64,000 bases of DNA from the IMG/VR virus record IMGVR_UViG_3300045988_083782; one strand, written 5' to 3'. How positions within the stretch are numbered: the first letter of the stretch is position 1; each line of letters starts with the position of its first letter. Below are positions 198 through 36,845 of this stretch, one piece after another. Under the pieces are notes generated by a model. That model was not told the DNA's origin. It searched no databases and saw only the letters and a list, made by a program, of their open reading frames with translations. Origin of the DNA: a virus. The position numbers and the translations under genes were made by a program.

Positions 198-1238
198 ATG
201 CTTCCTAATTCTGGTATAACTACTACACTGGTTGCAAATGAATTAGGAGTAAGTACACACTCTGTATCATAGTTGTGTACTAGTTCTAACATAAATATAT
301 TTAGTAAATATAAACCAGTTAAATGGCCCTATACTAATGTAGATGGTGTTACTGATAGGTGGAGATCTGTAAATGGTAATTGTGGAATACTAGTCCCTGA
401 TGCTACGTCTCTTCCTTCATCAGGACCTATGGCTAAATGGTAGCACGATAAACCTAGAGGTGGATCAAGTGAACCATATAGACTTGGAGACTTTAGAGGT
501 TACAATCACAGTGCTCCCGCATTCTTTAAAATGTATCCCGACCCTGCTATGAGAAAAGGAGAAGCATTTAAGTGTTCTATAATGCAGAATCAAGCAGCTG
601 AAATCAATATCAAAGATATTAAAGTTTTATCACAAAGCTATATAGGAATAGTAGTACGTCATACATCTACAGGAGAATTGAGATTCGTTACTCTTACTAC
701 TGATGTAGCTAGTATGTCAGCTAATGAATACTTGTTATCTGTAGATATTCCTAAAAATTGGCCTAATGGGAATGTAGAAGTATACATGGTAGGGTCTATG
801 ATATCTGTTCCAACAGTATAGACAAGTATTGGTACTACTGTTAGATCGCTGAATTAGGAAGATGGTAATGAAGGTTATCGAGTATTTGTACTTAAAGACG
901 AAGAACCAGATAGATTCAGTGTAGATTATGATGTTGAACCAGGATCACTTCCAGGAGAGTATGAAATTACATTTAGTGTTACATCTATTAAGGGTACATT
1001 CTGGATGTATGATGTAACTATGGTTCTTTCATCTGAACCTGCTGGTAACGTAATTCCTATGGGTACTGTAACTAGTGGTGCTGGACCAGATGTTAATATT
1101 ATGACAGGACAAACCTATACATTCCCTCCATATACTGTACACGTTATAAATAGTAGTATTAATTCTTACGTCAATGTAGACCCAACATATCGTGGTACTG
1201 TAATTGGTGGATTTAGTATTCTATTTAGAGCTAAATAA
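198..1238 (+). CDS. Tail fibre / receptor-binding-like virion protein (TAG-recoded)
   Basis: ATG at 198 follows the SD-like site. Track ORFs 531-821 and 1005-1238 share frame 0 with it. In-frame TAGs lie at 270, 441, 819 and 855; the stop is TAA. The N-terminus (LVANELGVSTHSV.QLC..SNINIFSKYKP) and GGSSEPYRLGDFRGYNH resemble phage fibre N-termini, from memory. Confidence 0.75.
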
Positions 1239-1262
1239 AATAAATTTTAATCGATTAAAACA

Positions 1263-1574
1263 ATGAATAAACTAGACGTAACAAAAGAAATTAGACAAGT
1301 TACATATACTTACACGAGTGATAATCTTACTTTTGAAGGTACTTGTAATGTTGACTCAAAGAAGGCAGTATCTGACGTTAATGCTCAGGTGAGTGTTAAA
1401 CAAGGAGAAGCTCCTATGAATATTGGCAGTGTGTCAAGTAATGGTAGTACATCTATCAATATTTGGAACAGTGAATATAAAAGTTTGATTGACACTGTAG
1501 CTACTGCTTTCAAGTCATTGCAGACAGATTTGACTAATTACTATAATGTTCAAAGTGTTAGTGATATCTTATAA
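1263..1574 (+). CDS. Hypothetical virion protein
   Basis: Intact 103-aa ORF with a TAA stop, packed 24 nt after the previous gene. Confidence 0.65.
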   Translation: MNKLDVTKEIRQVTYTYTSDNLTFEGTCNVDSKKAVSDVNAQVSVKQGEAPMNIGSVSSNGSTSINIWNSEYKSLIDTVATAFKSLQTDLTNYYNVQSVSDIL

Positions 1575-1576
1575 TT

Positions 1577-2035
1577 ATGCAAGTAAGTTTTAGAGTAAGT
1601 CCTACAGCACCAAATCCTGCTGAGACTACATATTGGATTGATACTACTGATAACAATTACAAAGGTACTATCAAGTATTACAATGCCAATACAAAGAAAT
1701 GGGAGATAGTAAACGATAGTACCAATAGTCAACAAAATGAAGCTATTAAAGAACTTAGTACTGCACTTCAGGCAATACAAGCAACGGTAAGTACTTTGCA
1801 AAGAGATAAAGTAGACAAGGTATCTGGTAAAACTCTTAGCACTAATGACTATACTACAGATGAAAAGAACAAGTTAGCTGGCATTGCTGCACAAGCAAAC
1901 AAGACTAACATTGTTAATAACCTGACTACATCTGCTGCTGGTTCTGCATTAGATGCACAGCAAGGTAAAGTACTAAAAGATGCTCTTGATGCTTTAACAC
2001 AAAGAGTAACTGCTTTAGAAACACCAGCTGCATAA
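1577..2035 (+). CDS. Tail-fibre-like protein with a coiled coil and a GK.LS.NDYT..EK.KL motif
   Basis: 152-aa ORF. The motif KVDKVSGKTLSTNDYTTDEKNKLAGI is typical of phage tail fibre repeats. TAA stop followed by a terminator. Confidence 0.75.
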   Translation: MQVSFRVSPTAPNPAETTYWIDTTDNNYKGTIKYYNANTKKWEIVNDSTNSQQNEAIKELSTALQAIQATVSTLQRDKVDKVSGKTLSTNDYTTDEKNKLAGIAAQANKTNIVNNLTTSAAGSALDAQQGKVLKDALDALTQRVTALETPAA

Positions 2036-2066
2036 AATACGCTATTAGTACATACTGATATAGGAA

Positions 2067-2173: not shown

Positions 2174-2809
2174 ATGTTGACATCAATAATTGAGAAACTA
2201 CCAGAAATAATATCATCTATAGCAGCTTTCGCAGCATTGTGGTTTACTTATAATCAATATACAAAGAATAAGATAACTGATTATAAAATTGAAAGTTGGA
2301 AGAAAGAGGAATCACAAAGGAATATAAAGAAAGCTGGAGATATAGCTACTATATATGGCGAACTATGGGAACTATTGCACTTTTTGAAAGCGGATAGAGT
2401 ATACATAATTCAGCCACATCCACTATATAAATCTCTATTTATCTCTGTTACTTTAGAAGTAAAGAGAAGTGATGTGTCTAGCGTGAAACCTCACCTGACA
2501 GATATTACTATCTCAACTATCGCGAAGTTCACTTCTGAATTAGCAAACAAAGATTACATATGGATTGACGACGTAGATAAGGAAGACATCGATAAAAAGA
2601 TGAAACAACTTATGCTTTACAATGGATGCAAGACATTGGCTATTCGTAGAATGACAGATGAAAATGATAACTGGATTGGCAACTTAGTTGTAAGTTATAC
2701 CAGAGGTTTTAATGAAGTAGATGTTACCAAAGACTTAGTAGATAAAATGACTAGATCGAGTGCACAGATGATCTAGTACTTATTACCAGAATACTAGGCA
2801 ACAAAATAA
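2174..2809 (+). CDS. Hypothetical membrane-anchored protein (accessory cargo between two transcription units)
   Basis: The track ORF 2174-2776 ends at TAG. With TAG read as sense it continues through a second TAG (2795) to TAA at 2807-2809. N-terminal hydrophobic helix; no motif recognised. Confidence 0.6.
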
Positions 2810-2899
2810 TTTCAGTGATAATGTATCACATAATGGCGTATTTTCAAATTTGATTTGTTAGTACGCCATTTTTATTTGCCTAGTTTAAAACTAACCATT

Positions 2900-3505
2900 A
2901 TGAATATATTCACAAAATTATTATTAGCAGCAGTGCTTGCATTAGGTCTTACTTGTGTATGGCAAGGTAATAAAATTAAGACACAAGATGCTCGTATATC
3001 TCAGATTTATAACAATTATAAATACTACGAATCGTAGTTCAACGGCACTGAAAAAGAAAATAGAGTCTTATAGCTTACAGTTAATGAATTAAAACTAAGT
3101 AAAGATAGCTTAGTGTAGGCAGTAAATAAGGCTAAGAAAGAATTAAAGGTCAAAGACCAGAATCTCAAAGAGGCTCACGTAATCAATACAGAAATGAAAG
3201 ACACAACTACAGTTAAAATAATAACTAAGGAGGTTGACTTTACTAAAGAGTTAAAGCTTAATTCATTGACAACCATCACGGTTAGCCGAAAAGATTCAAT
3301 CTTAACAACTATACTTGACTTAAAGAATCAGTAGATCCTTATTGTTGAAGAGAAAAAAGAATATCGTAACAAGTATAAAAATGGCTGGTAGAGATTCTGG
3401 CACTTTGACTGGAAAAAAGATAAAGTACAAAAATATCAAATTAAGAACACAAATGATCTTATCAAAGTAACAGATACCAGAGTTATCAAAATGACAGACA
3501 AATAA
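2900..3505 (+). CDS. Signal-anchored coiled-coil protein (spanin-like?), TAG-recoded
   Basis: ATG at 2900 gives MNIFTKLLLAAVLALGLTCVW. Frame 2 stays open through 5 in-frame TAGs to TAA at 3503-3505. The rest is Lys/Glu-rich coiled coil. Confidence 0.6.
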
Positions 3506-3547: not shown

Positions 3548-4159
3548 ATGCATAGACTATTCCGTATTAAGGCTTATGAAGCCGAACATGGTCCTCACTT
3601 TGACGAGGAAATGGCTCGTAAAGCAGTAAGCAAGATGGAAAATGAAGATGGCTCTAGAGGTCAACATTGGTCAATAGAAGAAACCACTTCGTTAGCCAAT
3701 CAGCACGGCATACGTATGGATGAAAAATTCAATAAGTATGACTGGTATGTTGCATTAAATATGGTATACTCAGACTATTACAGAGTAATAGTTAACATGA
3801 CAAATTCTAATAACCCTAAACACTTTGTTGAGCTTGCAAAAGCTTGGATGTGCGATAAGGATATAGAGGAAGGCAAAATGTGGTACTACTATGTATACAT
3901 AATGTGTGACAAAATCAGAAATGCTGAAGAGGAACTTTACGAGAGAGAATATGGCAGACGTCACAAGGAAGACGATGACGATGACGACGAATACGAATAT
4001 CATGGAATGATGCGTAGAGGCGGAAGAAGGTCAGGTATGACGGGTAGACGTTCTGAGTATAATTACGATCGTGATTACGAAAGAGAAGAAAGAAATCGTG
4101 AATACGAACCATATTCGGAATATGGGCATGGACGTTCAATTCGCTATGTTCGTTTTTAA
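3548..4159 (+). CDS. Hypothetical protein with an acidic/Arg-Tyr-rich low-complexity C-terminus
   Basis: Intact 203-aa ORF with a TAA stop. Contains a DDDDDDEYEY run and RRGGRRSGMTGRR. Confidence 0.65.
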   Translation: MHRLFRIKAYEAEHGPHFDEEMARKAVSKMENEDGSRGQHWSIEETTSLANQHGIRMDEKFNKYDWYVALNMVYSDYYRVIVNMTNSNNPKHFVELAKAWMCDKDIEEGKMWYYYVYIMCDKIRNAEEELYEREYGRRHKEDDDDDDEYEYHGMMRRGGRRSGMTGRRSEYNYDRDYEREERNREYEPYSEYGHGRSIRYVRF

Positions 4160-4194
4160 TCAAAACTTAAAAATCAATTTTAAAATAATCAATT

Positions 4195-5172
4195 ATGTTA
4201 GGTGAAGAAAAAATTATTGTACAGGATCGCGGTATCGATGCAGGTATTGCAGCACTGATGCAGAATGCTAACAAAGGTAACATGGACCCCGCAGCTCTTA
4301 TGGCTATGATGAATAACAACTACGGATTCGGTGGTAACGGAGCTTGGTGGATTTGGATTATCCTCCTGTTCTTCTGCTGGGGTGGATTTGGTGGTAATGG
4401 ATTCGGTAGAGGCGCTAACGATGCCAGCAGACTTGCTTCTGAACTGAATACTGACGCTAATACAAACTTGCTAATGCAAGCAATTAATGGTAATAAAGAA
4501 GCTATCAGCTCTCTGTCTAATACACTGAATTGTGACTTTAACTCAGTGACTGCTGCTTTGAACAGCATTAATAGTGGTGTTAGTAAGATCTCTTGTGATG
4601 TGAAATTATCAAGCTGTGAAGTTATTAATGCTATTACTTCTGGTAATGCTGCTTTAGCTTCTAAGCTCGCTGAATGTTGCTGCAACACGCAACGTTCTAT
4701 TGACAGTGTAAACTTGAATCTTACTAAGATGGGTTATGAAGATCAGTTGGCTATGTGTAACTAGACCAATACTCTGGTAAACACTATGAATCAGAATACA
4801 CTGAGCTTACGTGATTCTAACTTAGCTAATACTCAGGCTATACTTCAGAAGATCGATAACTTTGAGAATATTTATCGTCAAGATAAGATGGATAGACTGA
4901 CTTCTGAAAATCTTGCTCTGAAGGGACAGATCTCTCAGGCTAATCAGAATCAGTATATTGCTGCAACAGTACAGGCTAACACTGCACCGATTGTTAATCG
5001 TCTGAACTCATTGCAAAGTGATGTAGATGGTATTAAGTGTAAGTTGCCTAATACAGTAAGTGTACCGTATCCTCAATTAGCAGTTTACAATCCTGAAATC
5101 GCACGTGCTGCTGCATATGGTGCATTTGCAGGTGAAAATTATGGATTGAATACTCAGTGCGGTTGTTGCTAA
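4195..5172 (+). CDS. Cys-rich membrane protein (TAG-recoded)
   Basis: Track ORFs 4195-4764 and 4786-5172 are both frame 1, joined by one TAG (4762). Has a Gly/Trp-rich TM segment WWIWIILLFFCWGGFGG, multiple Cys and a C-terminal GCC. TAA stop. Confidence 0.7.
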
Positions 5173-5176
5173 TAGA

Positions 5177-5183
5177 AAGGAGG
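5177..5183 (+). promoter_or_regulatory. Shine-Dalgarno-like AAGGAGG 5 nt upstream of the ATG at 5189
   Basis: The sequence gaAAGGAGGtaattATG matches the element at 186-192. Confidence 0.5.
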
Positions 5184-5188
5184 TAATT

Positions 5189-5629
5189 ATGTATCCTTTT
5201 TATAATACGAACCAAAGATTATTTCCGTTTCCTTTCTTTCCATTTCCCGGAACAGGATTCAATCGGAGACGTAGATTAAATAGAATATCTGGTATACCAG
5301 TACTTAAAACTACAGGTGTTACCGCTTCAACTACTGAAGTAAGATATGACGTTAATGAAGCAGAATGGAGAGCACTTCCAAATGAAGGCCTTTTCTTCTT
5401 AGATGTAAGACAAGAAGTTCCTACTGCTAGTGCAGATCTTCCAGTAGCTCTTGAAGCTGGAGAACCTACTCCAGCTGGTACTTCTATGTTACGTAGTGCG
5501 TTAGCAGGAGACGTATAGGCAGGTGATTTGAAGATGACAATTAGATATATGATATACTATAATAAGTGTACTAAGACATATCAGTTAGTCAATTCTTATC
5601 CTGCTAATACTCCTACAGCTACTACATAA
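5189..5629 (+). CDS. Hypothetical virion protein (TAG-recoded)
   Basis: The track ORF ends at TAG 5516; the frame continues to TAA at 5627-5629. Confidence 0.6.
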
Positions 5630-5640
5630 GTTTAAACAAA

Positions 5641-5663
5641 GGGCTCCCTTAAAAAAGGAGCCC
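5641..5663. terminator. GC-rich hairpin GGGCTCC/GGAGCCC; the T-tract lies on the (-) side only
   Basis: 7-bp stem with a 9-nt loop. On the (+) strand it is followed by AAAAA; on the (-) strand by TTTGTTT. Confidence 0.4.
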
Positions 5664-5680
5664 AAAAACTTATATTTGTT

Positions 5681-6241
5681 ATGATGTTCAATGAATTAAA
5701 AACAGGAGATAATGTCTATATAGTAGAAGTTCTGGGAACTTTCAAAAAGAATACTAGCTACAGTGTTGGTACAGTCAGTTCTGTTTCAAACGTGTATGAT
5801 GAAGCTCTTCCTCAAGGCTAGTTTTAGATGCCTGGACAAACAAGAAAGAGATTAGTGGATGTCGTTATTACCAGCGACGGAGAATCAAAAAAGTTCACAG
5901 TCCCAGTCGATAGATCCATTATTAGTGACAGTTCTATTGGGCTTACTATTTCCACAAATAAAAACGAAATAGTCAAGATCATCCAAGATCAATACAATAT
6001 TTACAAAGCTAAAAAAGACTCTATCGCTAAATGTGATGAAGAGATGAAAAGATGTCAAGACCTACTTGATAAGTTAGATATTAAACCTGAAGAAAAAGAA
6101 GATCCTCGAATAAAGGAGCTTTAGAATGAAGTCAGTGAATTAAAGAATATTATAAAGCAAGCAAGTCAGATGGTTCCAGCACCAATGAAATAGATGCTAC
6201 CACAGGATATGCAAAATGCTATGAACGAGGCTAGTCATTAA
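5681..6241 (+). CDS. Hypothetical protein (TAG-recoded)
   Basis: ATG 5681 and track ORF 5828-6124 are both frame 2. There are 4 in-frame TAGs. The TAA at 6239-6241 sits in the terminator loop. Confidence 0.65.
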
Positions 6242-6256
6242 GACTAGCCTTTTTTA
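6229..6256 (+). terminator. Rho-independent terminator
   Basis: GGCTAGTC (6229-6236) pairs with GACTAGCC (6242-6249), followed by TTTTTT. Confidence 0.8.
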
Positions 6257-6381
6257 TTGCCCATTTCCTTGCCTTTAAAGAAGAGCTATTACACCATGTG
6301 TGCAATTGTATACCCTATAGCAGAAAGTGCGTAAAAAAGGCTAAGAATGCGTTTTATTTAGATAACGTTATATTTGAAAAG

Positions 6382-7032
6382 ATGAAATTAAATACATTAA
6401 ACACTATAGTGGATGATATACTATTAATATTGAGAAATAGTACCATTGGAGAATCTGAACATATAAGTAGGATTCAGATAGAACAATGGATACATCAATA
6501 TAGAGCATATCTAATAAGATAGGAGATAGATAAAGGTTATGACATAAATAATATGTATGTAACTACTATTCCTATGGTACACTTAGATAAAGTAGAAGAT
6601 ACTCCTGGACACTTTTTATATCAGTCTGAGTATGAACTACCTAAACTAATTCAGTTTCATAAAAGACCAGGACTTATCTTTGTGAAAGATATGTATGGCA
6701 ACCTAATCTAGATAGGTGATGAAACTAAAGCTAAAGCATAGAAGTATCGTAAGTATACTTGCAAAGATTATATTTGCTGGGTAAAGAATAATCGTATATA
6801 CTTAGATGGAGATAGTAATCAATTAGAGTATATTACTATTGGTATTATACCTGAGAATCCTGCTGATGTAGCAGATTGCTTTGATCCTAATGCTCCATAT
6901 CCGGCTCCAGCACACATGATACCTACAATCAAAGATTTAATCTTTAGTAAAGAACTTAGGATTATGCCTCAGATGCCATCTGACGATACTAACAATTCAC
7001 AAGATAATACATAGAATATATATAAGAAATAA
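6382..7032 (+). CDS. Virion structural protein (TAG-recoded), function unknown
   Basis: ATG 6382 in frame 1, with 4 in-frame TAGs and TAA at 7030-7032. The product begins MKLNTLNTIVDD...QIEQWIHQYRAYLIR-TAG-EID. Confidence 0.65.
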
Positions 7033-7499
7033 TGTAGACTGAAAAACTTAACTACAACAGAAAATCTTACACTATTGCAGACTATTATGTAAGCTACAAG
7101 AACTATATAGAATAGGATACAGTATATGATATACCCTATTCTACTTTTAGAAATATAGTATCTGATTACTTTAAATATATTCAATAGGAAGTAATAGAAG
7201 GTAGTAAAGAGTTTAAGTTGCCATGTCGGTTAGGTACGCTATGTATTGTGAAGAGATAGCCTAAGAATTTTGATAGTAAAAGCTTAAGAATAGATTATCA
7301 CGAAAGTAAAGTACAAGGTAAGATAGTATACTTCTTAAATGAACACTCAAACTTTTTTAAATTCAGGTTACACTGGTCAAAGAAAGAGTCACTACTTACT
7401 AATAAAACTAAATATTAGTTTATACTTACTAGAGCAAATAAGAGAAGACTTGCTCAGATAATCAAGAATAAAGAGCATGATTATATTGAAATAACTTAA
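7032..7499 (+). CDS. Hypothetical protein (TAG-recoded)
   Basis: The ATG overlaps the previous TAA (taATG). Frame 0 has 5 in-frame TAGs, including codon 2. TAA at 7497-7499. Confidence 0.55.
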
Positions 7500-7521
7500 C
7501 TAGCCGCTAAAAGATTAAACT

Positions 7522-8430
7522 ATGATAAATAACAATTTAATAAGTTCAAAAGCGGTTGTAGCTAAAATCATTGCTGATAATGACATGTCTGAAGATGATA
7601 TCAGAATATCTGACATCAAAGAGTGGATAGGTGAGGCAATGGAAAAGATTGGTGCTGTACAATAGCTCGAACATAAAGTAGTAGTATTACCTGTTAACTG
7701 CCATTAGACTAAGTTACCATGTGATCTATATAGATTAGACTAGGTTGCTTTTTCATTCAGCAACTCAAGCTGGTTACCTATGCGAAAGGCAACTGGCTCT
7801 TTTGGTATAAATACTTGTGGTACTTGTAATGACCCAAAGATGTTAATACAAGATGAACCACTGATTATACTAGTAAAAAACTTATACAATTTAACTAGTG
7901 ATAAAGAAGCATTAGATATACTTAATTCTTCACCTAATACTAGACAAACACTTAGTGCTTTACTTAATCAATATACTGTGCCTACTGTTAATGGTAAGTA
8001 TGTAGGTTATGATAGTAACTTTATCAGTAATGCATTACAATATACAACTAAACCGGGTTATATTATGACTAATATACCTAACGGCTTTGTTAAAATATCG
8101 TATCATGCAATACCTACTGATGACGAAAGTATGCCAATGATACCAGATAATCCTTCATACTCTGAAGCTATCTATTGGTATGTTACTATGAAGCTAGAGT
8201 TTCCTAACTATAAGACTGGTAAAACTCCTAGATATGTGTACTATGATATTAAGAACTCTTGGAACTTCTATAGGAAACAAGCATACGCAGAAGCAATGAT
8301 GCCTGGTGTAGATGAAATGCAGAGTATACAAAATAGCTGGCTTAGAATATATCCAGAGATAGACGAGCATGATACATTCTTTGATACACTTGGAGATAAA
8401 CAAATAATATACAATTAGAATAGAGTATGA
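7522..8430 (+). CDS. Virion structural protein (TAG-recoded)
   Basis: ATG 7522 and track ORF 7780-8418 are both frame 1. There are 4 in-frame TAGs. The TGA at 8428-8430 forms an ATGA overlap with the next gene. Confidence 0.7.
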
Positions 8431-11400: not shown

Positions 11401-12623
11401 TAGAACCGGGTCAGTTAGGTGCATATCATGTACAGGATAGACCATACTTCGCTTATAATCCTACTTACTCTTCACAGCCGGGTAGTAGAAAGTATATATC
11501 AGCTTCTATATATGCAGAGAATAATGTAGTTACATCTAATCGTATTGCTTGTTCTGAAGCTAAAACTAACAATGAAATACTTGACAATTGGACTAAGTTC
11601 AAATTTGCCAACTATTTAGATGTAGATAATAAGTATGGCTAGATTACTAATCTAACATCATTCAAAGATAGATTGTTCTTCTGGTAGGATACTGCACTAG
11701 GTATTGCTTCTGTAAATGAAAGATCTCTTATTCAAGATAATAATGTAGGTCAGTTAACATTAGGTACAGGCGGTATTCTTACAAGGGCTGATTATTTAAC
11801 TAATACAAATGGTTCATCTATAGTAAATGATAGAAGTATAGTACACTCTGATAACGTATTATATTGGTACGACTTTGATAAGAATGAAATATGTGCTTAC
11901 ACTGGACAAGTATCATAGATCTCTAAAGAGAAAGGTGTATAGACTTATCTTAATGAAATGTATGTGAATAAGCGTAATGTAAGCTTAGCGTTCTATGATA
12001 AGAAGTACAATGAAGTATGGTTTAAGTTCTATGACAAATCATTGATATTCAATGAACAGTTAGGTCAATTTACTTCATTCTATACATTTAATCCTCAGTG
12101 GGCTCTACCATTCTCTAATAAGATTGTAACTATTAAAGATAACTTCTACTATGTGATTAATACTCTAGATATAGATGGAATACTTCCTGAAACTAAGATT
12201 GCTAAAGTACAATTCTATGTAAACAAGGATACTCTATATACTAAAGTATTTGATAATGTATTCTTTGGTGGAGAATTCAATGACCCTAGTACAGCAGACA
12301 ATCTAACTGCTATGAATAACATAGTAACTAATATTACATTCCATACTAAGGGTCAAGAAGCTAATCCATTACCACCATGTACATATGATAGCACAGTAAA
12401 CACTGATCTTAAGTATGCATATGATTACAGAGAAGATACATATAGATTTGCTATAGGTAGAGAGAACATAAATTTGAGTGATACACAACAGATTGAGAAT
12501 AAAGCAAATGCTGGTAGATTGAGAGGTAAATGGTTACAGTGTGAGTATGTATTCGACTGTAATAATGATAAGACCTTTAAATTACCATACGTTAATACAA
12601 CATATAGATATTCACTAGTATAA
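8427..12623 (+). CDS. Large tail protein (stabilisation / tail-tubular-like), about 1398 codons, TAG-recoded
   Basis: Track ORFs 8427-9140, 9429-11249 and 11958-12623 are all frame 0. The gaps contain only TAG stops (about 10). N-terminal FTSGMNMDVD...YRYAENVR and internal DRLFFW-TAG-DTALG resemble podovirus tail stabilisation proteins, from memory. Confidence 0.8.
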
Positions 12624-14290: not shown

Positions 14291-14291
14291 T

Positions 14292-25000: not shown

Positions 25001-28000
25001 ATAAGATAGATGCCAGTGTATCCAGACAAGCTGGAGCATACGGTATGGATGATAGAGGTAATGGTAATATTAATCAAGCTGATGCTGCTGTATATATCAG
25101 ACCTGCTCTATATAAGAGAATTATTCAAGCTGTAGGAGAATGGTCACCAAAAGTTGAAAAGGCTTTTGACTTAATGGAATCTGATACAAATTGGTTATCT
25201 GATCCAGAGTTATATAGTCAAGCACTAGAAACTCTTATCAAACCTTTGAAGATGGTATACTTTGGTAATCATACTAACCCTCTTCTCAACCTTACAATTC
25301 CTGTATTTGATAAGATGGCAATCTTCCCAATGTTTAAAGTATTAGCAAATGCTGATAACCGTATTATTTATGATAGAATGAATAATGCAGAACTTGGAGA
25401 GATTGATATGATTGCATTTGAATCAGCAATTAAAGTAGGATCTAGAGTATTAGTAGACGCCTATAGTGATGCTCAAAACTCTAAATTCAATGCTGAAAAC
25501 TTCAACAAACCTTCTACATCTACTATCAAAGGATCAGATATAAGAGAGTAGTTAGATAGCAATAACTCTATGCTTCCTACTTATATACAAGATTTAAAGA
25601 ATCTGAGATTACAGATGAATACAGATCCTCACGAACATACTGATAGATCATTTGGTACTCAGGTATCTAAGATCGCTTTATCAAACATTGTTAAAGATCG
25701 TGTGTATGGTTATAATAAGGGTAGAAAGATAACAGGAGAACAGATCATCAACAATGTAATGGGTAGCATTACAGCTTTATCTGATAAAGGAGCAAGCTCT
25801 TTAAAAAGAGAATTCTTCAATAAAGATAAAGAATTAGACAAAAAACAATTATCTAGATTCTTAAAAGAACAAGGTAAACAAAGTGGATTGTCTACTGATG
25901 CTATCATGTCTATGTCATATGATCCTACTACAGGAGAAATGATAGCTCCTTTGTCTTCATTAAGTACTCGTAAGTTCATTGAAAGTAGAATTGTATCTCA
26001 AGTAGGTAAAAAAGCTGTAGATATTAACACTCCGGGTGGATCTGCTATTCAGATGGCATTCTTTGGATTTAAGAAGACAAGTACTTTATCACAAGAAGAT
26101 GTAAGTAGAGCGTATAATGATGGTAAGCCTCTGAAATTCTTGAAAGATAATGGTAGTATGGAATGTATGCTTAGTATAAACTTCTTTAGACACGTAGTAC
26201 CAGAAGAATATCAAACAGATTATACTACTATGCGAGAATGGTTGTTGTCTAAAAATATAATTGGAGACAAAGCTGATCCATTTGCAATTGGTTATCGTAT
26301 TCCGACACAGGGTCTTTCATCTACTGCATCATTAGTAGTTGCAGATGTATTACCCGCAGTAATGGGTGATACTATTGTAGTTCCTGATGAATTTACTGCA
26401 ATGACTGGTTCTGACTTTGATATTGATAAATTGTACATCGCATCATACTGGTATGATAAAGATGGCAATAAGATTGAGTTCGATGAAACTAAGGATACGT
26501 CTATGCACGATATCTATCATGCTAATAATGAAAAAGCATTAGTAAATAGACTGTTAGACATGTATAACCTAGTTATATCTGATGATAGTAATATTGATGA
26601 AACTAGAGCTCCTCTTGATAACCTTACTAACATTCTGAAGAAAGATATTCTTCCTATAGTACAGGCTGCATCAAATGCCGAAGCTGCTCCTTTCTATGAA
26701 GCATTACCATCATATCAGTTATCAAAGAAGTTTGAATATACTGGTGGTAAAATGGGTATTGCTCCGTTTGCTTTGCATTCTACTAACCATGCTATGACAC
26801 AAGCAATGGGTCTAAAGATGGATTTCGGAGCATATGGAAGTATGTTCAATCTTGAACAGATTGATTCTATCACTAGTCAAGACGGTTATCGTATTATGGA
26901 CTGGTTATCTGCAATGGTTAATGCTCATGTAGACGTTGCAAAAGACCCGTACATTATGACATTGAATGTTAATGATGTTACTTATAATATGACTAACTTC
27001 TTACTTAGAACTGGTAAGGGTACTACTACCTTCTATTTCTTACCTCAAGAGATACTTAAGGACTATGTAAATGAAATGCTCAAAGCAAACGGTGTATATG
27101 GTGTAGATCCTAATACTTCTATAGCTAACAGAAAAAAGGATATTATAAATAAATTATATAATACCTATGTATCTTTAGCTCAGAAGAGTATAGAAGAAGT
27201 GGAAGATCCTGATTTGAGAGATCAGTATTCTGATATGTTAAATAACTGGAAAGCATTCCATGCTGGCAAGAAGATCAATAAAGAAGATACTCCAAAACTT
27301 GCAAATGCATTAGATCAATCTATTCTAAAAGAGAATCTAATCAAGAACAATAAAGGTGAAAAAGACTTTATGTATTACTATAATCAGTTATTGGTATTTA
27401 GAACATTTAACGCTCTTACTCCAATGTCTGATACACTTAACACATTAGTTCAGAGATCTCAGATTGATACTAAGAAGTATGGTAATACTTTAGCTCTAGA
27501 AAGTAATTTCTACAATCAGGTACAAGACTTTATAACTGGAGAACAGGATTCATTCTTTATGACAGATGCAAATGGTAAGACATTAGAAGTAAATGCTTTA
27601 CTTCAGTATTATAATAATACATTCTTATCTACTAAATTAGAGCATGCTGTATTTATACCCAGATAGATTCTTAAAACACAACTTATTACTGCTACTTATC
27701 AATATAAGAATATAAACAATTATGTGTTAGGTAGTGTAGTAGGTAAAACTTATACTCAAGATCCTATTACTGGAGATGAAATAGTAAGAAGTAAATCTAC
27801 AGGTAATAAAGACTTAGTTACACAAGTAGCAGATGCTACAGAGACATACATTAGAACTCATAACCAGCAAGAGAAAATGTTTAATCTTACTGATGAATAG
27901 ATCAATAGTATGTTGTTTGGAGATAAGAGTATGTGTAAGAGATTATTTAATCTTAAACACAACATAATGAATAATCCAGCAAGCTATCCTGAATTAGTAG

Positions 28001-29229
28001 ATGCTGAAGGCAATATCACTAATGAATTACTTAACTATTTGATACCTGTACCAGCTACAGATAAAGATGTAGAAGGCACAGCAGATAGAATTCAATTGAT
28101 GAACTCTTCAATGTCTAACAGTTCTAACTTTGAGAATAGACTTATCGCTTACTTTACTGATCTATTGGATAGTAAAGATGAACGCATTAGGAATTTTGCA
28201 AATGACCTTGCTAGATATGCTTACTTAACATCTAATGATAATAAGGGTGTAAATACATTCTTCCATTTAGTTCCAATGGATTGGAAGATGCAACACGGTT
28301 ATATCGAATCTGTAAAAGATGTAATTCACGTACTCAATAATAGTGACTCAATAGATAAAATAATCACAGATATAGACAATCATTCTATAAGTAGTTATCC
28401 ATCTATTTCATTGTCAGTAGCTCGTAATAACTGGAATAATGAAACTATTGTACCTACTAGATCTATTCCTAAATCTGGCGCTGGTAGTATTATTGCAGAT
28501 GATATACTTCCTAACTCAGTATCTAGAAAATATAGAAAAGGGGTTAAATATGCTCTTAGTTTTGTGGATAGTAAAAACAGTAATTCTGACTTTGTTAAAG
28601 TGTCTTATGATGGAAATCCATAGAATGATGTACTCTATGTTAAAGTAGGTAAAGTAAAAGCATTTGATAAGAATGACCCTAGCAAACCCCTTAAAGGTGA
28701 AACTAAGACAGTTTATATGGCTATACCTAAATTAGGTTCGTTATAGAATGGTAAGCTTATACAAGAGTATCATAAGAACTATGATGAAAAGTCAGCATTT
28801 GATAATAACAATATACAAACATTAACATCTGAATAGATTATGACTTTCTACAATTCACACGAAAGAGGAAATTATGCAATATCTTATAAAGGTCTTAAGT
28901 TTGATGATATTATTGTTGAATTTACTCCGAATGAATACCTTGAAGGAGGATTAGATTATAAGTTAAGTGATGCAGGTCAAAAAGCTGTTGACAGAGATGT
29001 AAATAATGCTCTTGGTGATTATGGATTACTTGAAAATCCAGCATTTAAAGATAAGATGGAATAGAGATTGGCAATTGCAGAAGCAATAGGAGATGCTCCT
29101 GTAAAGAAAACAAGCAAAGTTCTTGATTATCGTATGTTTAAAGAAGAACCTGAGAACTTTAAATTTGAAGATAATATTACTGAAGAGTATTTAACTAAAA
29201 AAGATGATGATCCCAGTAGTCATTGTTAA
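16009..29229 (+). CDS. Giant virion-packaged RNA polymerase-like polyprotein (about 4400 codons), TAG-recoded
   Basis: 24 track ORFs from 16009 to 29064 are all frame 1, interrupted only by TAG (about 28, including a TAG-TAG doublet at 16843-16848). Single TAA at 29227-29229. Carries DFDID at 26413-27 after IGYRIPTQGLSS, HEAWH (HExxH) at 21799-21813, and an acidic E/P-rich repeat linker near 19050-19700. Confidence 0.85.
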
Positions 29230-29240
29230 AAATAAATAAT

Positions 29241-32200
29241 ATGTTTTGTCCTTAGATAAATAATTAGAAGGTAAGAGATTCCTTCAACGATATAGTGGAA
29301 GCTCTTGGTGGTGAACCTTTGACCATCGAGGAGTTTAAAGACGGAGAATTAAGGAGACAAAGAACAGGTGTGAATTATGCGGCTATGAATGCCGCATATT
29401 CCATCTGGGATATGAATAATGGCAATAGCATAGATAGAGCACCTAATGGTGAGCCTTCTATACTTTTTCAAACTCTTATGGAAAAGTATGATGGAGACAC
29501 TATGTAGGCTATTTAGGCTAAGTCCAAAGTATATAGCAACGGATTCAAGAAATGGTTTGGCGATTGGATAAATAATCCAGAAGAATCATCTAAAGTAGTC
29601 GATGAAAATGGAGAACCGTTAATAGTGTATCATGGTACACCCCAAGATGAAATAAAAGAGTTCTCTATAGATAAAGTAAAGATGCCAGATTCACAGAAAA
29701 TAGCTGACGTATTTACTAAAGGTTTTTATTTTTCTAAAAATCGTGATACTGCTAAATATACGTATTCTATAAAATACGAAACAGTAGGAAAAGGTGCAGA
29801 AAACCTATAGTATGGATCTGTAATAGGTTGTTATTTGAATATAAAAAATTTATATAAAGCTGAAATAGATAGTAAAGAGAAGAATCTTGTTGATGAAAGT
29901 ATAAATGTACGTAAAAAAGTTCTGGATAATATCGATAACAATGATGGAGCGGAAATGATTATATACGATATAGATCAAGGAGACCCCGAATTACATTCAA
30001 TATAGACTTAGTTTGTAGTAAAAGATGCAACCAATATAAAATCTGTAGACAATAGTGGTAGATTCATATCTAATTCTCCTAATCTATTTGATGGTGTATT
30101 CTCCCCAGAAGCATTAAAATTCAATGAAGTAAACATAAATAAAGCACAAGAAGCTCTGAATAACTTTAGAGCTAACAGATATGACTTTTCAAATGTTACA
30201 GCCAATCTAAGACAAAGAATTAGAGATGGTGTTAAACAAAGAATTAAAGCAATTAATAATAGAAATATACCTAATAAGTCTGCTATAATAACTTCATTAG
30301 AATACCAGCTAAATAACTTAGAAAACAAAACTGTATCAGATCTTGAGAATATAGTATTCTTTATTAAAGATGTATGGTCTAATATGGAAAGTCCTATTGG
30401 TCTTATACTTAGAGCTTAGAAGAATATTACCGAAGGTAAAGACAGTGGATTGAGTAATAATTAGCTTATTCAATTTCAGCAGGACTACTACGGAATGTAT
30501 AATACACTTAGTAATGAAATTGCTGCTGAATTATTCAACTCAGATAGATACAGAGACTTATTAGGAGCTCAAGAATTCGACGATCTTAAAGCTTAGATAA
30601 AGTAGATCCAAGAGATGTTTGGATATGCTCAAACAGCCTTAAATGACGTAATAACAGACCATGCTGCAAAGACACTGTTAATGCGAGGTATTGATGCAGG
30701 ATCTAATACTATACGTAACTATGTTAATACTTAGCTTACTTCTACCGCTAACGATATGTCTATGTTAGTAAGACTTATTGGTGCTGGAGATAAGATGTCT
30801 GATGAAGCTCTTAGAGTAATGTTTAATATAGTACAGAGAGCAGAGGATAAAATTGCTGAAAACACTTATATTAAAGGTAGAAAGCTATTAAAGTTACTTG
30901 ATAAAGTAGGCACTAAGCAGTTGAAACTATTTGAAACTGATTCTAAAGGAAAGAAGACAGGTTATTTAGTTAGAGATAAAAAGTATGGATAGTTTAGAGC
31001 TGAGTTTAAAGACTTTATGAAAGCTCTTAAGGCTAGATACAATGTATCTGAAGATAGACAAGTGCCAGATGATATCAATGTAAGAAAGCAATTTAATGCC
31101 GAAAAGAATGCGTGGCTTGAAGACCACTGTGAAAGAAGATTTACAGCAGAATACTATAACTTATTTAATAGCCTTAGTGATGAAACTATTGCCGCTAGAG
31201 ACGCTATCCAATTTAAGATCTATACTTTATTAGATAAAGCAAGAGACAAGCACGGTAATGTAAATTTGGAGAAACTAAGCGATGCAGAATGGGATCAGTT
31301 ACAAGGATACTATGTTTAGAAAAAGCAATTAGCTTCTATTTACTATCCTAGTGGAGCAAAGAAACAAGATATTGAATTATAGATAGCTCTCGAATTACAA
31401 GATTTAAATAAACAGCTTAGTGGAGCTTTAGAGTATAAAGTAAATCAAAAGAAATTTGATGAAGTAAAAGCTGAAAAGAAAAGAACTTTATCAGAAGAAG
31501 AATTCAAGAAGTGGGAACAAAGAAATACTAGAGTAGAAATAGATCCTAAATTCTGGGAACAGTTAAAGAAGATACAAAGACGAGAATATGGTGAAGAGTA
31601 TGCTAGAATTCAAGAAGTAAAGAGAGAAATACTTAATACTTATAGAGATGAAAGAACTGGTACTCCCAATACTCACTTAATGTCTCGTGAAGTAATAAAA
31701 ACACTTAAAGCTCTTGATAGAGATTTACGTAGAATTAGAAGAAAAACTAAAAAATCAGGTAAGAAAGGTGAATTACAGTTTAAAGATATTGCTAAAACTG
31801 TAACTACTTGGCAGTATAAGAGAGATAAAAAGGAAGCAATTGCCAAAGAAGCTACAAATCCTGGTTATTATGCTTCTTGGGAAGCACAACATCACACGTA
31901 TACTGCCGAAGGTAAGGCAATACCTAATTCTTACTATACTACTATTGTACCACTTAATGAAGAGTATATTCATATAGTACCTAGTAGAGCATTCTCAGAA
32001 TTATCTGAAGATTCACAATTCTACAATAAGAATTATAATGAAAATTCAGATGAATACTATCAACCTAAATCTTCTTTATATGGCAATGAAAAGCAGTTCG
32101 CTGAACTGATGAAAGACAAAGATCTAAAGGCTCTATATTCTGCTATATTAGAGACTATGCACGAATCCAACGAAAAATTACCATTCTTAACAAAGAATGA

Positions 32201-34001
32201 TCCATACAAATTACCACAGATTAGTGGTAGTATGTATCAGTTTGTAAAGAGTTAGGACAATCTGATTAAAGGCATGTTAAAGTATACAGCAGATTCCTTT
32301 GTAGCTAATTCTGATGACGTTGGTTTTGCTCCAGAAAAGATAACAACTAGACCTGATGGATCTCCATTACGTATGGTTCCTACTTACTATATTAAAGATT
32401 TAGACGATGTAACCACAATGACTAATGACTTAGTAGGAGCTGTTGTTTCTTACTATAAAATGGCAGAGAATTTCAAGTAGAAGACAGCAATTGCTCCAGA
32501 CCTTGAGATTATAAAGAATCAGTTAGGTTTAAGAAACTTTACTGGTACTAATACTACTATGGATAGAGCGAAGAAATGGTTATTGTAGAAACAAGATCCT
32601 AAGAAAGGTACAGAAACGCGTGTATACGAGTTTGCTAAGAACTTTATAGATATGCAAGTATATGGGGAGCTTACTAAAGGTAACTTCTTTACTATAAAAG
32701 GCAAACAGTATAATTTGTCTAAGTTACTTTCGAAACTGAAGAATTGGGGAACCACTATTAACTTGGGTTTGAATTTCATTAGTGCTTCTGTAGGTTTTAT
32801 TACTGCTTTACATACTTCTTTCATGATGGCTGTGCAAGGTAGGTATTTCAATATGGGTAATTATATGCACGCTTGGAAAAACACTATAACTAATCTTCAT
32901 AAATCTGCGTGGAACATAGGTGCTAACAATATTAATAATAAGTATATTAACCTAATGGAATACTTTGAGGTTGGTACTGAACAAGATAGATTGTTTAAAG
33001 AATCAAATCTTAATAGAGCGGTAAAAGTAGCTAAACGAGATTGGGCATTCGGAATTTACTCCATGTCTGATTTTATAATTAAAGGCACTATCTTAAATTC
33101 CGTTATGTTAAACTTTAGGTACTTCAATGGCGAATTTCTGACAATGGAATAGTTCATGTAGAACTATAAAAACAATGAAGCAGAAGGAAAAGCAGTTTGG
33201 AGTACGTTACCTACTTCTTATGATGTAGTAAGTGTAGAGAATGGCATAATTAAAGTAGATCCTAAGTATGCTAAAGCATTTGAAGCTAAGAAGTTTGTAA
33301 TTAAAAACACCGCAGCTACTATGGCAGCTACAGCAGATGGTATGTTAACTCCATTACAGAGAACATAGATGCAAGCAAATGCTTGGGGCGCATTGTGTAT
33401 GATGCATAGACAGTATCTTCCTAATATGATATAGGAAAGACTTACTATGAAAAAACACTATGACTATAATACTGGAACTACTAGAGAAGCTCTTTATAGA
33501 ACACCACTTAGAGTAGCTAAAATGCTAATAAAAGACTGGGGTCAAAAGAAACAAATACTAGAAAGTTTAGATGCTTCTGATAGAGCTAATTTAAGACAAA
33601 TAATGACAGAATTACCATTACTGTTTGTAGTATATCCATTAATCTCTATAGCATTATCAGCAGAAGCAGATGATGATAAAGATAATTGGTTGAAACAATT
33701 ATGTGCATTACTTGTAGTTAGGTCTAAATTCGAAGCAGGAGCTCCATATAATGTATTAGATATTGTAAATACAGTTAAATCTCCATCTGCTATATTTAGT
33801 ATGACAGATAATATTTCTACTGTAATTAACTATCCTATATACTTGTTTAATAATGGCGATAAAGTATCCAAGTATGGCCCATATAAAGGATGGACTAAAC
33901 TAGAAAAATCATTACTTAAATTAACACCATTTAAGAATGTATGGGAACTTCAAGATCCAGCTATTAAGCGAAGGTACTTCTAGACACAAATTGATAAATA
34001 A
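29241..34001 (+). CDS. Large polyvalent ejected/cargo protein (about 1590 codons), TAG-recoded; possible ART-like domain and C-terminal TM helices
   Basis: Track ORFs 29295, 29625, 30756, 31017, 31680, 32274, 32652 and 33447 are all frame 0. About 23 in-frame TAGs; TAA at 33999-34001. Contains WFGDW...SKVVDENGEPLIVYHGT...GFYFS. The start is uncertain: ATG 29241 or GTG 29295. Confidence 0.75.
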
Positions 34002-36839: not shown

Positions 36840-36845
36840 AATTTG

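What the first reader, a model, noticed from the sequence alone, without database searches (positions are those of the whole stretch)
198..34001. The late (+) module is translatable only if TAG is a sense codon
Between 198 and 34001 the ORF-track fragments sit in shared frames and are separated only by TAG.
- 8427-9140, 9429-11249 and 11958-12623 are all frame 0; I read the gaps codon by codon and found TAG only.
- 24 track ORFs from 16009 to 29064 are all frame 1.
- 8 track ORFs from 29295 to 33983 are all frame 0.

Read this way the region becomes 17 tightly packed genes, several with ATGA/TAATG overlaps. Each ends at TAA (16) or TGA (1), so TAG is never needed as a terminator.

My hand count is on the order of 90-100 in-frame TAGs, including a TAG-TAG doublet at 16843-16848. 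Contexts such as RLFFW-TAG-DTA are compatible with Gln but do not prove it.

TAG-to-Gln recoding concentrated in late genes is established for some crAss-like and Lak gut phages. The identity of the inserted residue here is inference.
Basis: partly seen in the sequence, partly recalled or inferred. Interest (0 to 1): 0.75.

Follow-up and report, generated by a model that had tools for sequence, protein, structure and literature searches.

The report
Amber-recoded late genes, crAss-like phage
This is the late (lysis, tail and virion-cargo) gene block of a gut crAss-like phage in which the stop codon TAG is read as glutamine, a real but already well-documented trick of this phage family.

Summary
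With TAG read as sense, + strand 198-34001 becomes 17 tightly packed genes covering 98.3% of the region. They hold 102 in-frame TAG in 11,067 codons and no in-frame TAA or TGA. Sixteen end in TAA and one in TGA.

The 38 TAG-free genes I called in the minus-strand replication module hold no in-frame TAG in 7,281 codons (Fisher p = 5e-23).

The window is a Crassvirales phage of family Suoliviridae (the "Delta" crAss group). It is collinear with cr53_1, cr115_1, cr125_1, cr6_1 and cr52_1, whose homologous genes are also interrupted only by TAG.

Window TAGs align mostly with Gln or TAG. Gln beats the next residue by 106 and 687 log-likelihood units in two data sets. In 98-100% identical strains, 59 of 70 replacements are CAG or CAA.

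No tRNA(CUA) lies in the window. All five near-identical contigs that extend further carry one, right before the first TAG-containing gene.

This matches Yutin 2021, Borges 2021 and Peters 2022, so it is already known.

Side observations:
- A conserved single amber codon in the leader of a resolvase gene inside the replication module.
- One early gene that probably ends at TAG.
- A two-piece tmRNA candidate.
- A conserved 1.65 kb ORF-free element.

The parts
198..2035 (+). g1 (198-1238, 4 TAG), g2 (1263-1574, 0 TAG) and g3 (1577-2035, 0 TAG). These are the first genes of the late block in the window. Function is unknown, probably tail or fibre related.
   Evidence: Strong SD (GGAAGGAGG) before 198. 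No PHROG for g1.
2174..3505 (+). Lysis-cassette slot. g4 (2174-2809) is a membrane protein in the holin position with 2 TAG. g5 (2900-3505) is a homologue of the gene annotated 'lysis regulatory protein-like', with 5 TAG (2.5 per 100 aa).
   Evidence: tblastn collinearity with annotated cr53_1, cr115_1 and cr52_1 genes. TAG densities.
3548..8430 (+). g6-g12, small virion and tail genes:
- g7: phrog_16490
- g10: virion structural protein, phrog_9863
- g11: phrog_12177, 5 TAG including codon 2
- g12: tail tubular homologue, phrog_33740, the only gene ending in TGA

TAG counts for g6 to g12 are 0, 1, 1, 4, 4, 5 and 4.
8427..12623 (+). g13, a 1,398-aa tail stabilisation / virion structural protein (phrog_28748) with 10 TAG.
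   Evidence: PHROG E = 6e-206. Full-length single-piece tblastn match to 25 Crassvirales records.
12623..16022 (+). g14 (12623-14290, 6 TAG) and g15 (14292-16022, 4 TAG). They are homologues of the two genes that follow the stabilisation protein in all Suoliviridae references.
16009..29229 (+). g16, a giant 4,406-aa protein with 29 TAG, including the TAG-TAG doublet at 16843-16848. It has a DFDID motif at residues 3469-3473. It is the homologue of the 4.4-4.6 k-aa genes of the references and is inferred to be the virion RNA polymerase / cargo protein.
   Evidence: Reference annotation.
29241..34001 (+). g17, a 1,586-aa protein with 23 TAG. It is the last gene of the + block and ends where the GC skew changes sign.
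   Evidence: Weak phrog_37651 'virion structural protein' hit on one fragment.
34069..63399 (-). Replication / early-middle module: PD-(D/E)XK nuclease, AAA ATPases, primase, AAA_24 / Sak4-like protein, DnaB helicase, DNA polymerase and many small ORFs. The 38 TAG-free genes I called hold no in-frame TAG. Their stops are 31 TAA and 7 TGA.
36846..37235 (-). DUF1064 / Holliday-junction-resolvase gene with one in-frame TAG at codon 9 (37211-37209), in a Lys-rich leader. No in-frame ATG, GTG or TTG lies between the TAG and the conserved GKVRNATPN motif.
   Evidence: Pfam DUF1064 E = 1.5e-12. DNA read. cr53_1 homologue has TAG at codon 4. 76 of 79 IMG/VR homologues have a leader TAG, and none of 80 has a TAG in the body.
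49082..49618 (-). Early gene that probably terminates at TAG (49084-49082), i.e. it is read in the standard code.
   Evidence: Sequence after the TAG changes frame and length among 98-100% identical relatives. C-terminal TAGs are also seen in cr53_1 early genes.
35526..35798 (-). Small early gene with a private amber codon at codon 64 (35606-35604).
   Evidence: Six near-identical relatives have TGG (Trp) at this position.

Best explanation
The window is about two thirds of a ~97 kb genome of a crAss-like phage (Crassvirales, Suoliviridae, the Delta group).

Its + strand block 198-34001 is the distal part of the late operon: a lysis cassette, tail proteins, a tail stabilisation protein, and the giant virion RNA-polymerase/cargo proteins. 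This block is written in genetic code 15, where TAG is decoded as glutamine and only TAA or TGA terminate.

The divergent replication module on the minus strand is compatible with the host's standard code.

The likely mechanism is a phage-encoded amber-suppressor tRNA(CUA). It lies outside the window, immediately upstream of the first TAG-containing late gene. Once it is made, ribosomes read through the roughly 100 TAGs. Before that, every late mRNA terminates within a few to a few hundred codons. The recoding therefore acts as a translational lock on lysis and virion genes.

Shown here:
- The gene structure.
- The TAG-only interruption.
- Homology and collinearity with reference phages.
- The Gln signal opposite TAG.
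- The module asymmetry.
- The tRNA in near-identical relatives.

Inferred:
- That the window's own genome carries the tRNA.
- That the tRNA is charged with Gln.
- The timing function.
For: **Structure and statistics**
- 17 genes, 102 TAG, no in-frame TAA or TGA, 98.3% coverage, p = 5e-23 against the other module.

**Family placement**
- Best protein hits are Suoliviridae phages at 37-45% identity.
- Gene order is identical from the holin slot to the 4.4 k-aa gene.

**Relatives are interrupted only by TAG**
- 547 TAG, no TAA or TGA in five references.
- 4,465 TAG against 1 TAA and 1 TGA in 72 loci.

**Residue identity**
- Q is favoured by 106 and 687 log-likelihood units.
- Strain-level TAG-to-CAG/CAA exchange accounts for 59 of 70 replacements.
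- TAG-less resolvase leaders have Q at the TAG site, KKQGKV against KKK-TAG-GKV.

**Suppressor tRNA**
- tRNA with anticodon loop CUCUAAA found in L010, which is 95-96% identical to window 58-64 kb, about 7 kb past the window's end.
- Present in all five near-identical contigs that reach that region.
- Followed by tRNA-Met, then genes with 12, 11, 1 and 7 TAG. The four + strand genes upstream have none.
- Homologous to the cr53_1 tRNA(CUA) annotated tRNA-Gln just before terL, with compensatory changes in the anticodon stem.

**Literature**
- PMC9523058 detects peptides with Gln at TAG in two crAss-like phages.
- bioRxiv 10.1101/2021.08.26.457843 proposes the late-gene and lysis timing model.
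Against: - No tRNA(CUA) is present in the 64 kb window.
- No release factor or aminoacyl-tRNA synthetase was found among the minus-strand proteins scanned.
- The decoding machinery is therefore inferred from relatives.
- The Rfam score of the relatives' tRNA(CUA) is just under the gathering threshold, 27.3 against 29 bits.
- Many window TAGs sit at variable positions opposite E, K, P, T or S. One conserved position is Tyr in relatives (g14 residue 392). The per-site evidence is therefore statistical, not absolute.
- Expression timing was not measured.
Confidence: 0.93

Rival explanations
1. TAG is sense but encodes another residue (Glu, Lys, Tyr, Trp, Leu, Ser or pyrrolysine) rather than glutamine.
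For: - ARAGORN labels the relatives' tRNA(CUA) 'Pyl', but this is from the anticodon alone.
- E and K are the next most common residues opposite TAG.
- One TAG aligns with an invariant Tyr.
Against: - Likelihoods: Q -801.7, E -907.4, K -941.9.
- In 72 loci: Q -6348, E -7035, K -7498.
- In near-identical strains the replacements are CAG 43 and CAA 16, against 11 of all other kinds.
- TAG and CAG differ by one transition.
- Proteomics in related phages found Gln (PMC9523058).
- No pyl genes were seen among the proteins scanned.
Confidence: 0.03
2. TAG is read through without a dedicated phage tRNA. This would be by a host suppressor, near-cognate decoding, or depletion or inhibition of release factor 1.
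For: - No tRNA(CUA) in the window.
- A 2026 preprint reports a TAG-recoded Crassvirales genome with no detectable suppressor (10.64898/2026.08.21.746148).
Against: - Five of five near-identical contigs carry the tRNA(CUA) at the head of the recoded block.
- The same is true of cr53_1.
- A single ORF with 29 TAGs needs near-quantitative decoding.
- The window simply ends about 7 kb short of the syntenic site.
Confidence: 0.04
3. The fragments are independent short genes or decaying pseudogenes, and TAG is an ordinary stop.
For: Under code 11 the region still yields 27-59 ORFs covering 58-75% of it.
Against: - No TAA or TGA in 11,067 codons, while off-frame density is about 87 per 1000.
- Alignments run straight through the TAGs to single full-length genes.
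- TAG positions are themselves conserved in 76-98% of distant relatives at 11 sites.
- Fragment ends do not coincide with homologue ends.
Confidence: 0.01

Closest known systems
Delta-group crAss-like phages (Suoliviridae) cr53_1, cr115_1, cr125_1, cr6_1 and cr52_1 (Yutin et al. 2021, PMC7886860)
   Same: - Same gene order from the lysis cassette to the giant cargo genes.
- In-frame TAG only in the structural and late block.
- Replication module on the opposite strand essentially TAG-free.
- tRNA(CUA) before terL in cr53_1.
- Resolvase with an N-terminal TAG in cr53_1.
- A 2 kb unannotated gap at the same site.

   Different: - Only 37-45% amino-acid identity in the tail stabilisation protein.
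- No nucleotide-level match.
- No reverse-transcriptase gene upstream of the holin slot in the window.
- Near-identical (98-100%) unnamed contigs exist in IMG/VR.
crAss-like phages with proteomically validated code 15 (Peters et al. 2022, PMC9523058)
   Same: TAG read as Gln in structural and late proteins, a suppressor tRNA, and a standard-code early region.
   Different: Those are other genomes (94 kb and 191 kb). No peptide data exist for this phage.
Lak megaphages and the other recoded gut phage clades of Borges et al. (bioRxiv 10.1101/2021.08.26.457843)
   Same: - Late and lysis genes are locked by in-frame stop codons.
- A suppressor tRNA is part of the code-change machinery.
- In the TGA-recoded Agate phages a single recoded homing-endonuclease gene sits inside an early gene. 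This is analogous to the amber-gated resolvase seen here.
   Different: - Lak phages are over 500 kb, and some encode RF2.
- No RF or aaRS was found among the window proteins scanned.
- The resolvase gate itself is not mentioned in that paper: zero hits for 'resolvase' or 'Holliday'.

Membership tests
Code-15 (TAG->Gln) recoded crAss-like phage, Suoliviridae / Delta group | Conserved late genes are interrupted only by TAG and become full-length homologues when TAG is sense. | tested here: met
Code-15 (TAG->Gln) recoded crAss-like phage, Suoliviridae / Delta group | TAG positions align preferentially with Gln (and with TAG) in homologues. | tested here: met
   Q is best by 106 and 687 log-units. 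CAG/CAA make up 59 of 70 strain-level replacements.
Code-15 (TAG->Gln) recoded crAss-like phage, Suoliviridae / Delta group | The early / replication block is compatible with the standard code. | tested here: met
   0 TAG in the 38 TAG-free genes called (7,281 codons). Exceptions: resolvase codon 9, one private amber mutation, one probable TAG terminator.
Code-15 (TAG->Gln) recoded crAss-like phage, Suoliviridae / Delta group | Phage-encoded suppressor tRNA with a CUA anticodon. | tested here: inconclusive
   Absent from the window. Present in 5 of 5 near-identical contigs and in cr53_1, at a site about 7 kb beyond the window's end.
Code-15 (TAG->Gln) recoded crAss-like phage, Suoliviridae / Delta group | Crassvirales signature genes and synteny: tail stabilisation protein, tail tubular protein, giant RNAP-containing gene. 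| tested here: met
   phrog_28748 and phrog_33740 hits, the DFDID motif, and collinearity. TerL, portal and MCP lie outside the window and were not tested.
Code-15 (TAG->Gln) recoded crAss-like phage, Suoliviridae / Delta group | Peptides with Gln at TAG positions. | not testable with these tools
   Needs virion or metaproteome mass spectrometry.
Code 4 (TGA->Trp) recoded phages | In-frame TGA in conserved genes. | tested here: not met
   0 in-frame TGA in 11,067 + 7,281 codons. TGA terminates 8 genes.
Pyrrolysine decoding of UAG | pylT together with pylS/pylBCD, and UAG aligned with Lys or Pyl in a few specific enzymes. | tested here: not met
   102 TAGs are spread over 14 structural genes. 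Lys is 140 to 1,150 log-units worse than Gln. No such genes were found among the proteins scanned.
Lak-type code-change module (suppressor tRNA plus RF2 and/or aaRS) | Phage-encoded release factor 2 or Gln-tRNA synthetase. | tested here: not met
   No RF or aaRS family hit among the 17 minus-strand proteins of 165 aa or more that were scanned with Pfam. The 205-aa ORF at 62531-63148 and the smaller minus-strand ORFs were not scanned. The rest of the genome was not seen.

The most novel reading that the evidence does not exclude
The amber code may be used gene by gene as a translational timer, not only as a property of the late operon.

The replication module reads TAG as stop. One window gene, and several cr53_1 genes, appear to end at TAG. 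Inside that module, a DUF1064 Holliday-junction resolvase carries exactly one TAG in its short Lys-rich leader.

This holds in 76 of 79 relatives (27 of 30 distinct leader sequences). The TAG sits at several different codon positions, and none of the 80 gene bodies holds a TAG.

The resolvase would then be made only after the suppressor tRNA appears, so branched DNA is cut only at packaging time.

More speculatively, the two-piece tmRNA conserved in this lineage could cope with the read-through caused by suppression.
Probability: 0.45. Interest if true: 0.5.

Novelty: already known. Interest (0 to 1): 0.22.

Why it matters
**For annotation.** Calling this region with code 11 shatters 17 genes into dozens of fragments and hides, among others, a 4,406-aa virion RNA-polymerase-containing protein.

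**For biology.** It is one more instance of a documented strategy: stop-codon recoding as a lock on lysis and virion genes. It does not change what is known.

**What could be new.** The side observations are modest but testable:
- The amber-gated resolvase inside a standard-code operon.
- Both meanings of TAG apparently in use within one genome.
- The associated non-coding RNAs.

These give concrete handles on how and when the code switch acts.

Tried and rejected
- Megablast of 8400-16000 against the phage collection found nothing. Only protein-level searching placed the phage.
- ARAGORN and a 3-mismatch pattern search found no tRNA(CUA) in the window.
- The window's class-II tRNA-like gene (62396-62477) and the weak tRNA-like hit (57062-57126) were examined as possible suppressors. 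Neither has a CUA anticodon loop, so both were rejected.
- PHROG scans of ten TAG-free fragments of g16 and g17 gave one weak hit only.
- Pfam found no RF or aaRS among the proteins scanned.
- TGA or TAA as the reassigned codon was rejected. Neither yields long ORFs: the longest are 2,148 and 2,250 nt, against 13,260 nt with TAG as sense.
- For the resolvase leader, a short upstream ORF with re-initiation was considered. It was rejected as the main reading, because 76 of 77 TAG-bearing leaders have no in-frame ATG, GTG or TTG after the TAG.
- RNAalifold on the conserved ORF-free element did not separate sense from antisense, -249 against -225 kcal/mol with similar covariation counts. Neither structure nor strand is established.
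- Literature searches for a crAss ncRNA or tmRNA link gave nothing specific.


Full report
**1.

The window is 33.9% G+C. GC skew is positive up to about 34 kb and negative afterwards, which marks two divergent gene blocks.

With TAA and TGA as the only stops, the + strand from 180 to 34001 resolves into long ORFs:
- a 4,420-codon ORF at 15970-29229
- a 1,597-codon ORF at 29211-34001
- a 1,408-codon ORF at 8400-12623

With first-ATG starts there are 17 genes. One search gives these figures:
- 102 in-frame TAG in 11,067 codons
- no in-frame TAA or TGA
- 16 TAA terminators and 1 TGA terminator
- 98.3% coverage of 198-34001, against 58-75% for code-11 ORFs in the same frames

- the three frame-0 fragments of g13
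- the TAG-TAG doublet at 16843-16848
- the RLFFW-TAG-DTA context
- the ATGA and TAATG overlaps

Off-frame TAA plus TGA occur at about 87 per 1000 triplets in these genes. ORFs of thousands of codons therefore cannot arise by chance.

Reading TGA or TAA as sense instead gives no long ORFs.

**2. What the region is**

There is no nucleotide-level match in the phage collection. The 1,398-aa g13 protein (phrog_28748, E = 6e-206) matches 79 phage records, the listed ones being crAss-like phages or unnamed gut phage records. The best hits are Suoliviridae phages cr53_1, cr115_1, cr125_1, cr114_1, cr4_1, cr6_1 and cr52_1 at 37-45% identity over the full length.

The annotated neighbourhoods of five of these are collinear with the window. 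The shared order is:
1. holin slot
2. lysis-regulatory-like gene
3. several small virion genes
4. tail tubular protein
5. stabilisation / virion structural protein
6. two genes of about 600 aa
7. one gene of 4.4-4.6 thousand aa
8. one gene of 1.6-1.8 thousand aa

After that come oppositely oriented replication genes.

g16 carries a DFDID motif at residues 3469-3473. This fits the virion RNA-polymerase-containing giant proteins of this order. That assignment rests on general knowledge of Cellulophaga phage phi14:2 gp66 and on the transcription-block description in PMC7886860.

The minus-strand block encodes a DNA polymerase, primase, DnaB-like helicase, AAA ATPases, a Sak4-like / AAA_24 protein and a PD-(D/E)XK nuclease.

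**3. TAG is sense, and it is glutamine**

tblastn with X at every TAG shows alignments running through the TAGs. All 547 in-frame stops inside the five references' aligned genes are TAG. In 72 more distant IMG/VR loci the counts are 4,465 TAG, 1 TAA and 1 TGA.

Opposite the window's TAGs, the five references show Q 68, TAG 68, E 43, K 24 and D 20.

I built substitution profiles for each amino acid from the same alignments and compared likelihoods:

| Data set | Q | E | K |
|---|---|---|---|
| 5 references | -801.7 | -907.4 | -941.9 |
| 72 IMG/VR loci | -6348 | -7035 | -7498 |

The link holds in the other direction too. The references' TAGs align with window Q far more often than with any other residue: 7.5% of Q positions, against 2% or less for the others.

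The cleanest evidence comes from eight contigs that are 98-100% identical to the window. At the window's TAG sites they have TAG 402, CAG 43, CAA 16 and everything else 11. TAG and Gln codons therefore interchange like synonyms, mainly by the single C/T transition.

Eleven TAG sites are themselves TAG in 76-98% of the distant loci.

Some TAGs sit opposite conserved non-Gln residues, for example Tyr at g14:392 and Pro at g9:49. The inference is statistical rather than site by site.

**4. Module asymmetry and the two meanings of TAG**

The 38 TAG-free minus-strand genes I called hold no in-frame TAG in 7,281 codons and end in TAA (31) or TGA (7). Fisher p against the + genes is 5.4e-23.

There are three minus-strand exceptions:

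(a) **ORF 49082-49618.** It has a TAG 15 codons before the next TAA. In six relatives of 98-100% identity, the sequence after the TAG changes frame and length. The TAG is therefore most likely the real terminator.

In cr53_1, whose records were translated with TAG as sense, the early-module TAGs are of three kinds:
- six genes have them within the last 22 codons;
- one is a TAG-TAG pair where two genes seem to have been fused;
- the resolvase has one near its start.

The early module therefore appears to use TAG as stop.

(b) **ORF 35526-35798.** It has TAG at codon 64, where six near-identical relatives have TGG. This is a private amber mutation.

(c) **The DUF1064 / Holliday-junction-resolvase gene, 36846-37235.** See section 6.

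**5. How the TAGs are probably decoded**

ARAGORN and Rfam find no CUA-anticodon tRNA in the window.

An exact-match search with the last 37 bases of the window found five IMG/VR contigs. One of them, L010, is 95-96% identical over most of window 58-64 kb, with one 90% block.

In L010 a tRNA with anticodon loop CUCUAAA lies about 7.1 kb beyond the window's end, in the window's + orientation. A tRNA-Met(CAU) follows it. Its Rfam score is 27.3 bits, against a threshold of 29.

The same tRNA sequence occurs in all five close-relative contigs that reach that region. One of them is the 97,441-nt contig 3300045988_044053.

In that contig the layout on the + strand is:
1. four genes with no TAG
2. 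tRNA(CUA)
3. tRNA-Met
4. genes with 12, 11, 1 and 7 TAGs, of terL and portal size

cr53_1 has the homologous tRNA, annotated tRNA-Gln. It has a CUA anticodon and sits between the small early + strand genes and terL. The two tRNAs share acceptor and D arms and differ by compensatory changes in the anticodon stem.

Taken together, the code boundary on the + strand coincides with the suppressor gene. The window starts downstream of it and ends upstream of it.

Still inferred: that the window's own genome has the tRNA, that the tRNA is charged with Gln, and that its appearance times late translation.

No RF or aaRS was found among the proteins scanned.

**6. An amber codon in the resolvase leader (side finding, followed up)**

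The minus-strand gene at 36846-37235 matches Pfam DUF1064 (E = 1.5e-12) and, more weakly, phage endonuclease I.

Its only upstream in-frame ATG is at 37235. Codon 9 is TAG. No ATG, GTG or TTG lies between the TAG and the conserved GKVRNATPN motif.

The cr53_1 homologue is annotated as a Holliday junction resolvase and has TAG at codon 4.

Among 80 IMG/VR homologues at 62-100% identity:
- 79 contain the motif.
- 76 of those 79 (27 of 30 distinct leaders) have an ATG, then 3-14 codons, then a TAG. The TAG lies 1, 3, 6, 7, 8, 9 or 20 codons before the motif, and no later start codon follows it.
- None of the 80 has a TAG in the 117-120-codon body.
- Three leader variants have Q directly before the motif where the window has TAG (KKQGKV, KRQGKV, KNQGKV, against KKS-TAG-GKV in the window). 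One of them, KKQGKV, has no TAG at all.

The simplest reading is a single-codon gate. It would keep a DNA-branch-cutting nuclease untranslated until the suppressor is present.

Borges et al. describe an analogous recoded homing endonuclease inside an early gene of TGA-recoded Agate phages. Their text does not mention a resolvase.

**7. Comparison with what is known, and verdict**

- Yutin et al. [quoted passage not shown] - Borges et al. propose the lysis and late-gene timing model.
- Peters et al. 2022 (PMC9523058) show Gln at TAG by mass spectrometry in two crAss-like phages.
- A 2026 preprint summarises the 'low-amber / high-amber domain' picture.

The finding is therefore a correct reading of a known phenomenon in a lineage whose near-identical genomes are already public. 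Interest is low for the finding itself. The resolvase gate, the apparent dual use of TAG, and the ncRNA content are the parts that might repay more work.

**8. Other things seen**

- **ncRNA-rich distal minus-strand region.** It holds RAGATH-7 with a sub-threshold RAGATH-7-assoc hit, RAGATH-9 and a Hatchet ribozyme.
- **Two-piece tmRNA candidate, 57152-57532.**
  - Read by eye, it has a 7-bp acceptor stem with a G3.U70 pair.
  - Its tag is GKTFVSDYTRLSA.
  - ARAGORN finds similar permuted tmRNAs in five diverged relatives, with tags GNFYVTDYTRIAA and GNTSYIMNYSRIAA.
- **ORF-free stretch, 50255-52251.**
  - It is about 69% identical over 1.2 kb to unannotated gaps at the same site in cr115_1, cr114_1 and cr125_1.
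  - Shorter conserved patches occur in seven more Suoliviridae.
  - It has no Rfam match.
  - The RNAalifold result is inconclusive.
- **Class-II tRNA-like gene, 62396-62477.**
  - Its anticodon arm is a 7-bp hairpin with a 3-nt loop.
  - The called anticodon differs among 95-99% identical strains.

Noticed in passing
window 36846-37235 (-), TAG at 37211-37209: A DUF1064 / Holliday-junction-resolvase gene inside the otherwise TAG-free replication module has one in-frame TAG at codon 9 of a Lys-rich leader. 76 of 79 IMG/VR homologues and cr53_1 also have a single leader TAG, at varying positions. None of 80 has a TAG in the body. In three leader variants (one with no TAG at all) Q sits directly before the conserved motif, where the window has its TAG. 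This looks like a conserved amber 'gate'.
   Followed up: yes
window 49082-49618 (-), TAG at 49084-49082: This early gene probably terminates at TAG. In 98-100% identical relatives the 10-16 codons after the TAG change frame and length. cr53_1 early genes likewise have TAGs at their extreme C-termini. TAG therefore seems to mean stop in the early module and Gln in the late one.
   Followed up: yes
window 35526-35798 (-), TAG at 35606-35604: A small early ORF has TAG at codon 64, where six near-identical relatives have TGG (Trp). This is a private amber mutation in this genome.
   Followed up: yes
L010 1058-1129 (-); L180 2227-2298 (+); L012 6664-6738 (+): A suppressor tRNA(CUA), followed in the close relatives by tRNA-Met(CAU), lies about 7 kb beyond the window's right end in all five near-identical contigs. 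It sits exactly at the boundary between TAG-free and TAG-containing + strand genes. It is homologous to the cr53_1 gene annotated 'tRNA-Gln'.
   Followed up: yes
window 57152-57532 (-): Two-piece (permuted) tmRNA candidate.
- ARAGORN tag GKTFVSDYTRLSA*.
- Rfam tmRNA_permuted scores 36.3 bits, below the gathering score of 47.
- Read by eye, the acceptor stem GGGGCAU/AUGCUCC has a G3.U70 pair.
- ARAGORN calls similar permuted tmRNAs in relatives L199, L200, L209, L216 and L218.

The two crAss recoding papers checked do not mention it.
   Followed up: partly
window about 50500-52150 (inside the ORF-free stretch 50255-52251): A conserved non-coding element of about 1.65 kb.
- About 69% identity over 1.2 kb with unannotated gaps at the syntenic site of cr115_1, cr114_1 and cr125_1.
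- Patches of 78-95% identity in cr55, cr1, cr6, cr4, cr53 and cr50, and about 70% in cr52.
- Invariant blocks such as GAGAACCG and AACACG.
- No Rfam hit.
- The RNAalifold consensus does not separate the two strands.

   Followed up: partly
window 62396-62477 (-): Class-II tRNA-like gene (Rfam tRNA, 45.4 bits) whose anticodon arm is a 7-bp hairpin with a 3-nt loop (CATTCTC-ATT-GAGAATG). ARAGORN calls the anticodon ATT here and CCT in 95-99% identical strains. The arm varies while the rest of the gene is nearly invariant among the close relatives. The syntenic cr53_1 gene is a normal tRNA-Leu(TAA).
   Followed up: partly
window 57062-57126 (-): Weak tRNA hit (31.7 bits) with good acceptor, D and T arms. 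Only about 16 nt stand in place of the anticodon arm and variable region.
   Followed up: no
window 58537-58697, 59827-59966, 63351-63430, 63435-63633 (all -): Rfam matches in the intergenic gaps of the distal minus-strand block:
- RAGATH-9, 127.9 bits
- Hatchet ribozyme, 87.5 bits
- RAGATH-7-assoc, 42.9 bits, below threshold
- RAGATH-7, 147.8 bits
   Followed up: no
window 16009-29229 (+), residues 3469-3473: A DFDID motif in the 4,406-aa protein, consistent with the catalytic motif of crAss-type virion RNA polymerases. PHROGs has no family for nine of the ten fragments tested.
   Followed up: partly
window 11-55 (+): A 16-nt direct repeat, AGCAAGTTCGGAATAG (11-26 and 40-55), overlaps an inverted repeat TTCGGAAT...ATTCCGAA, just upstream of the first gene.
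   Followed up: no
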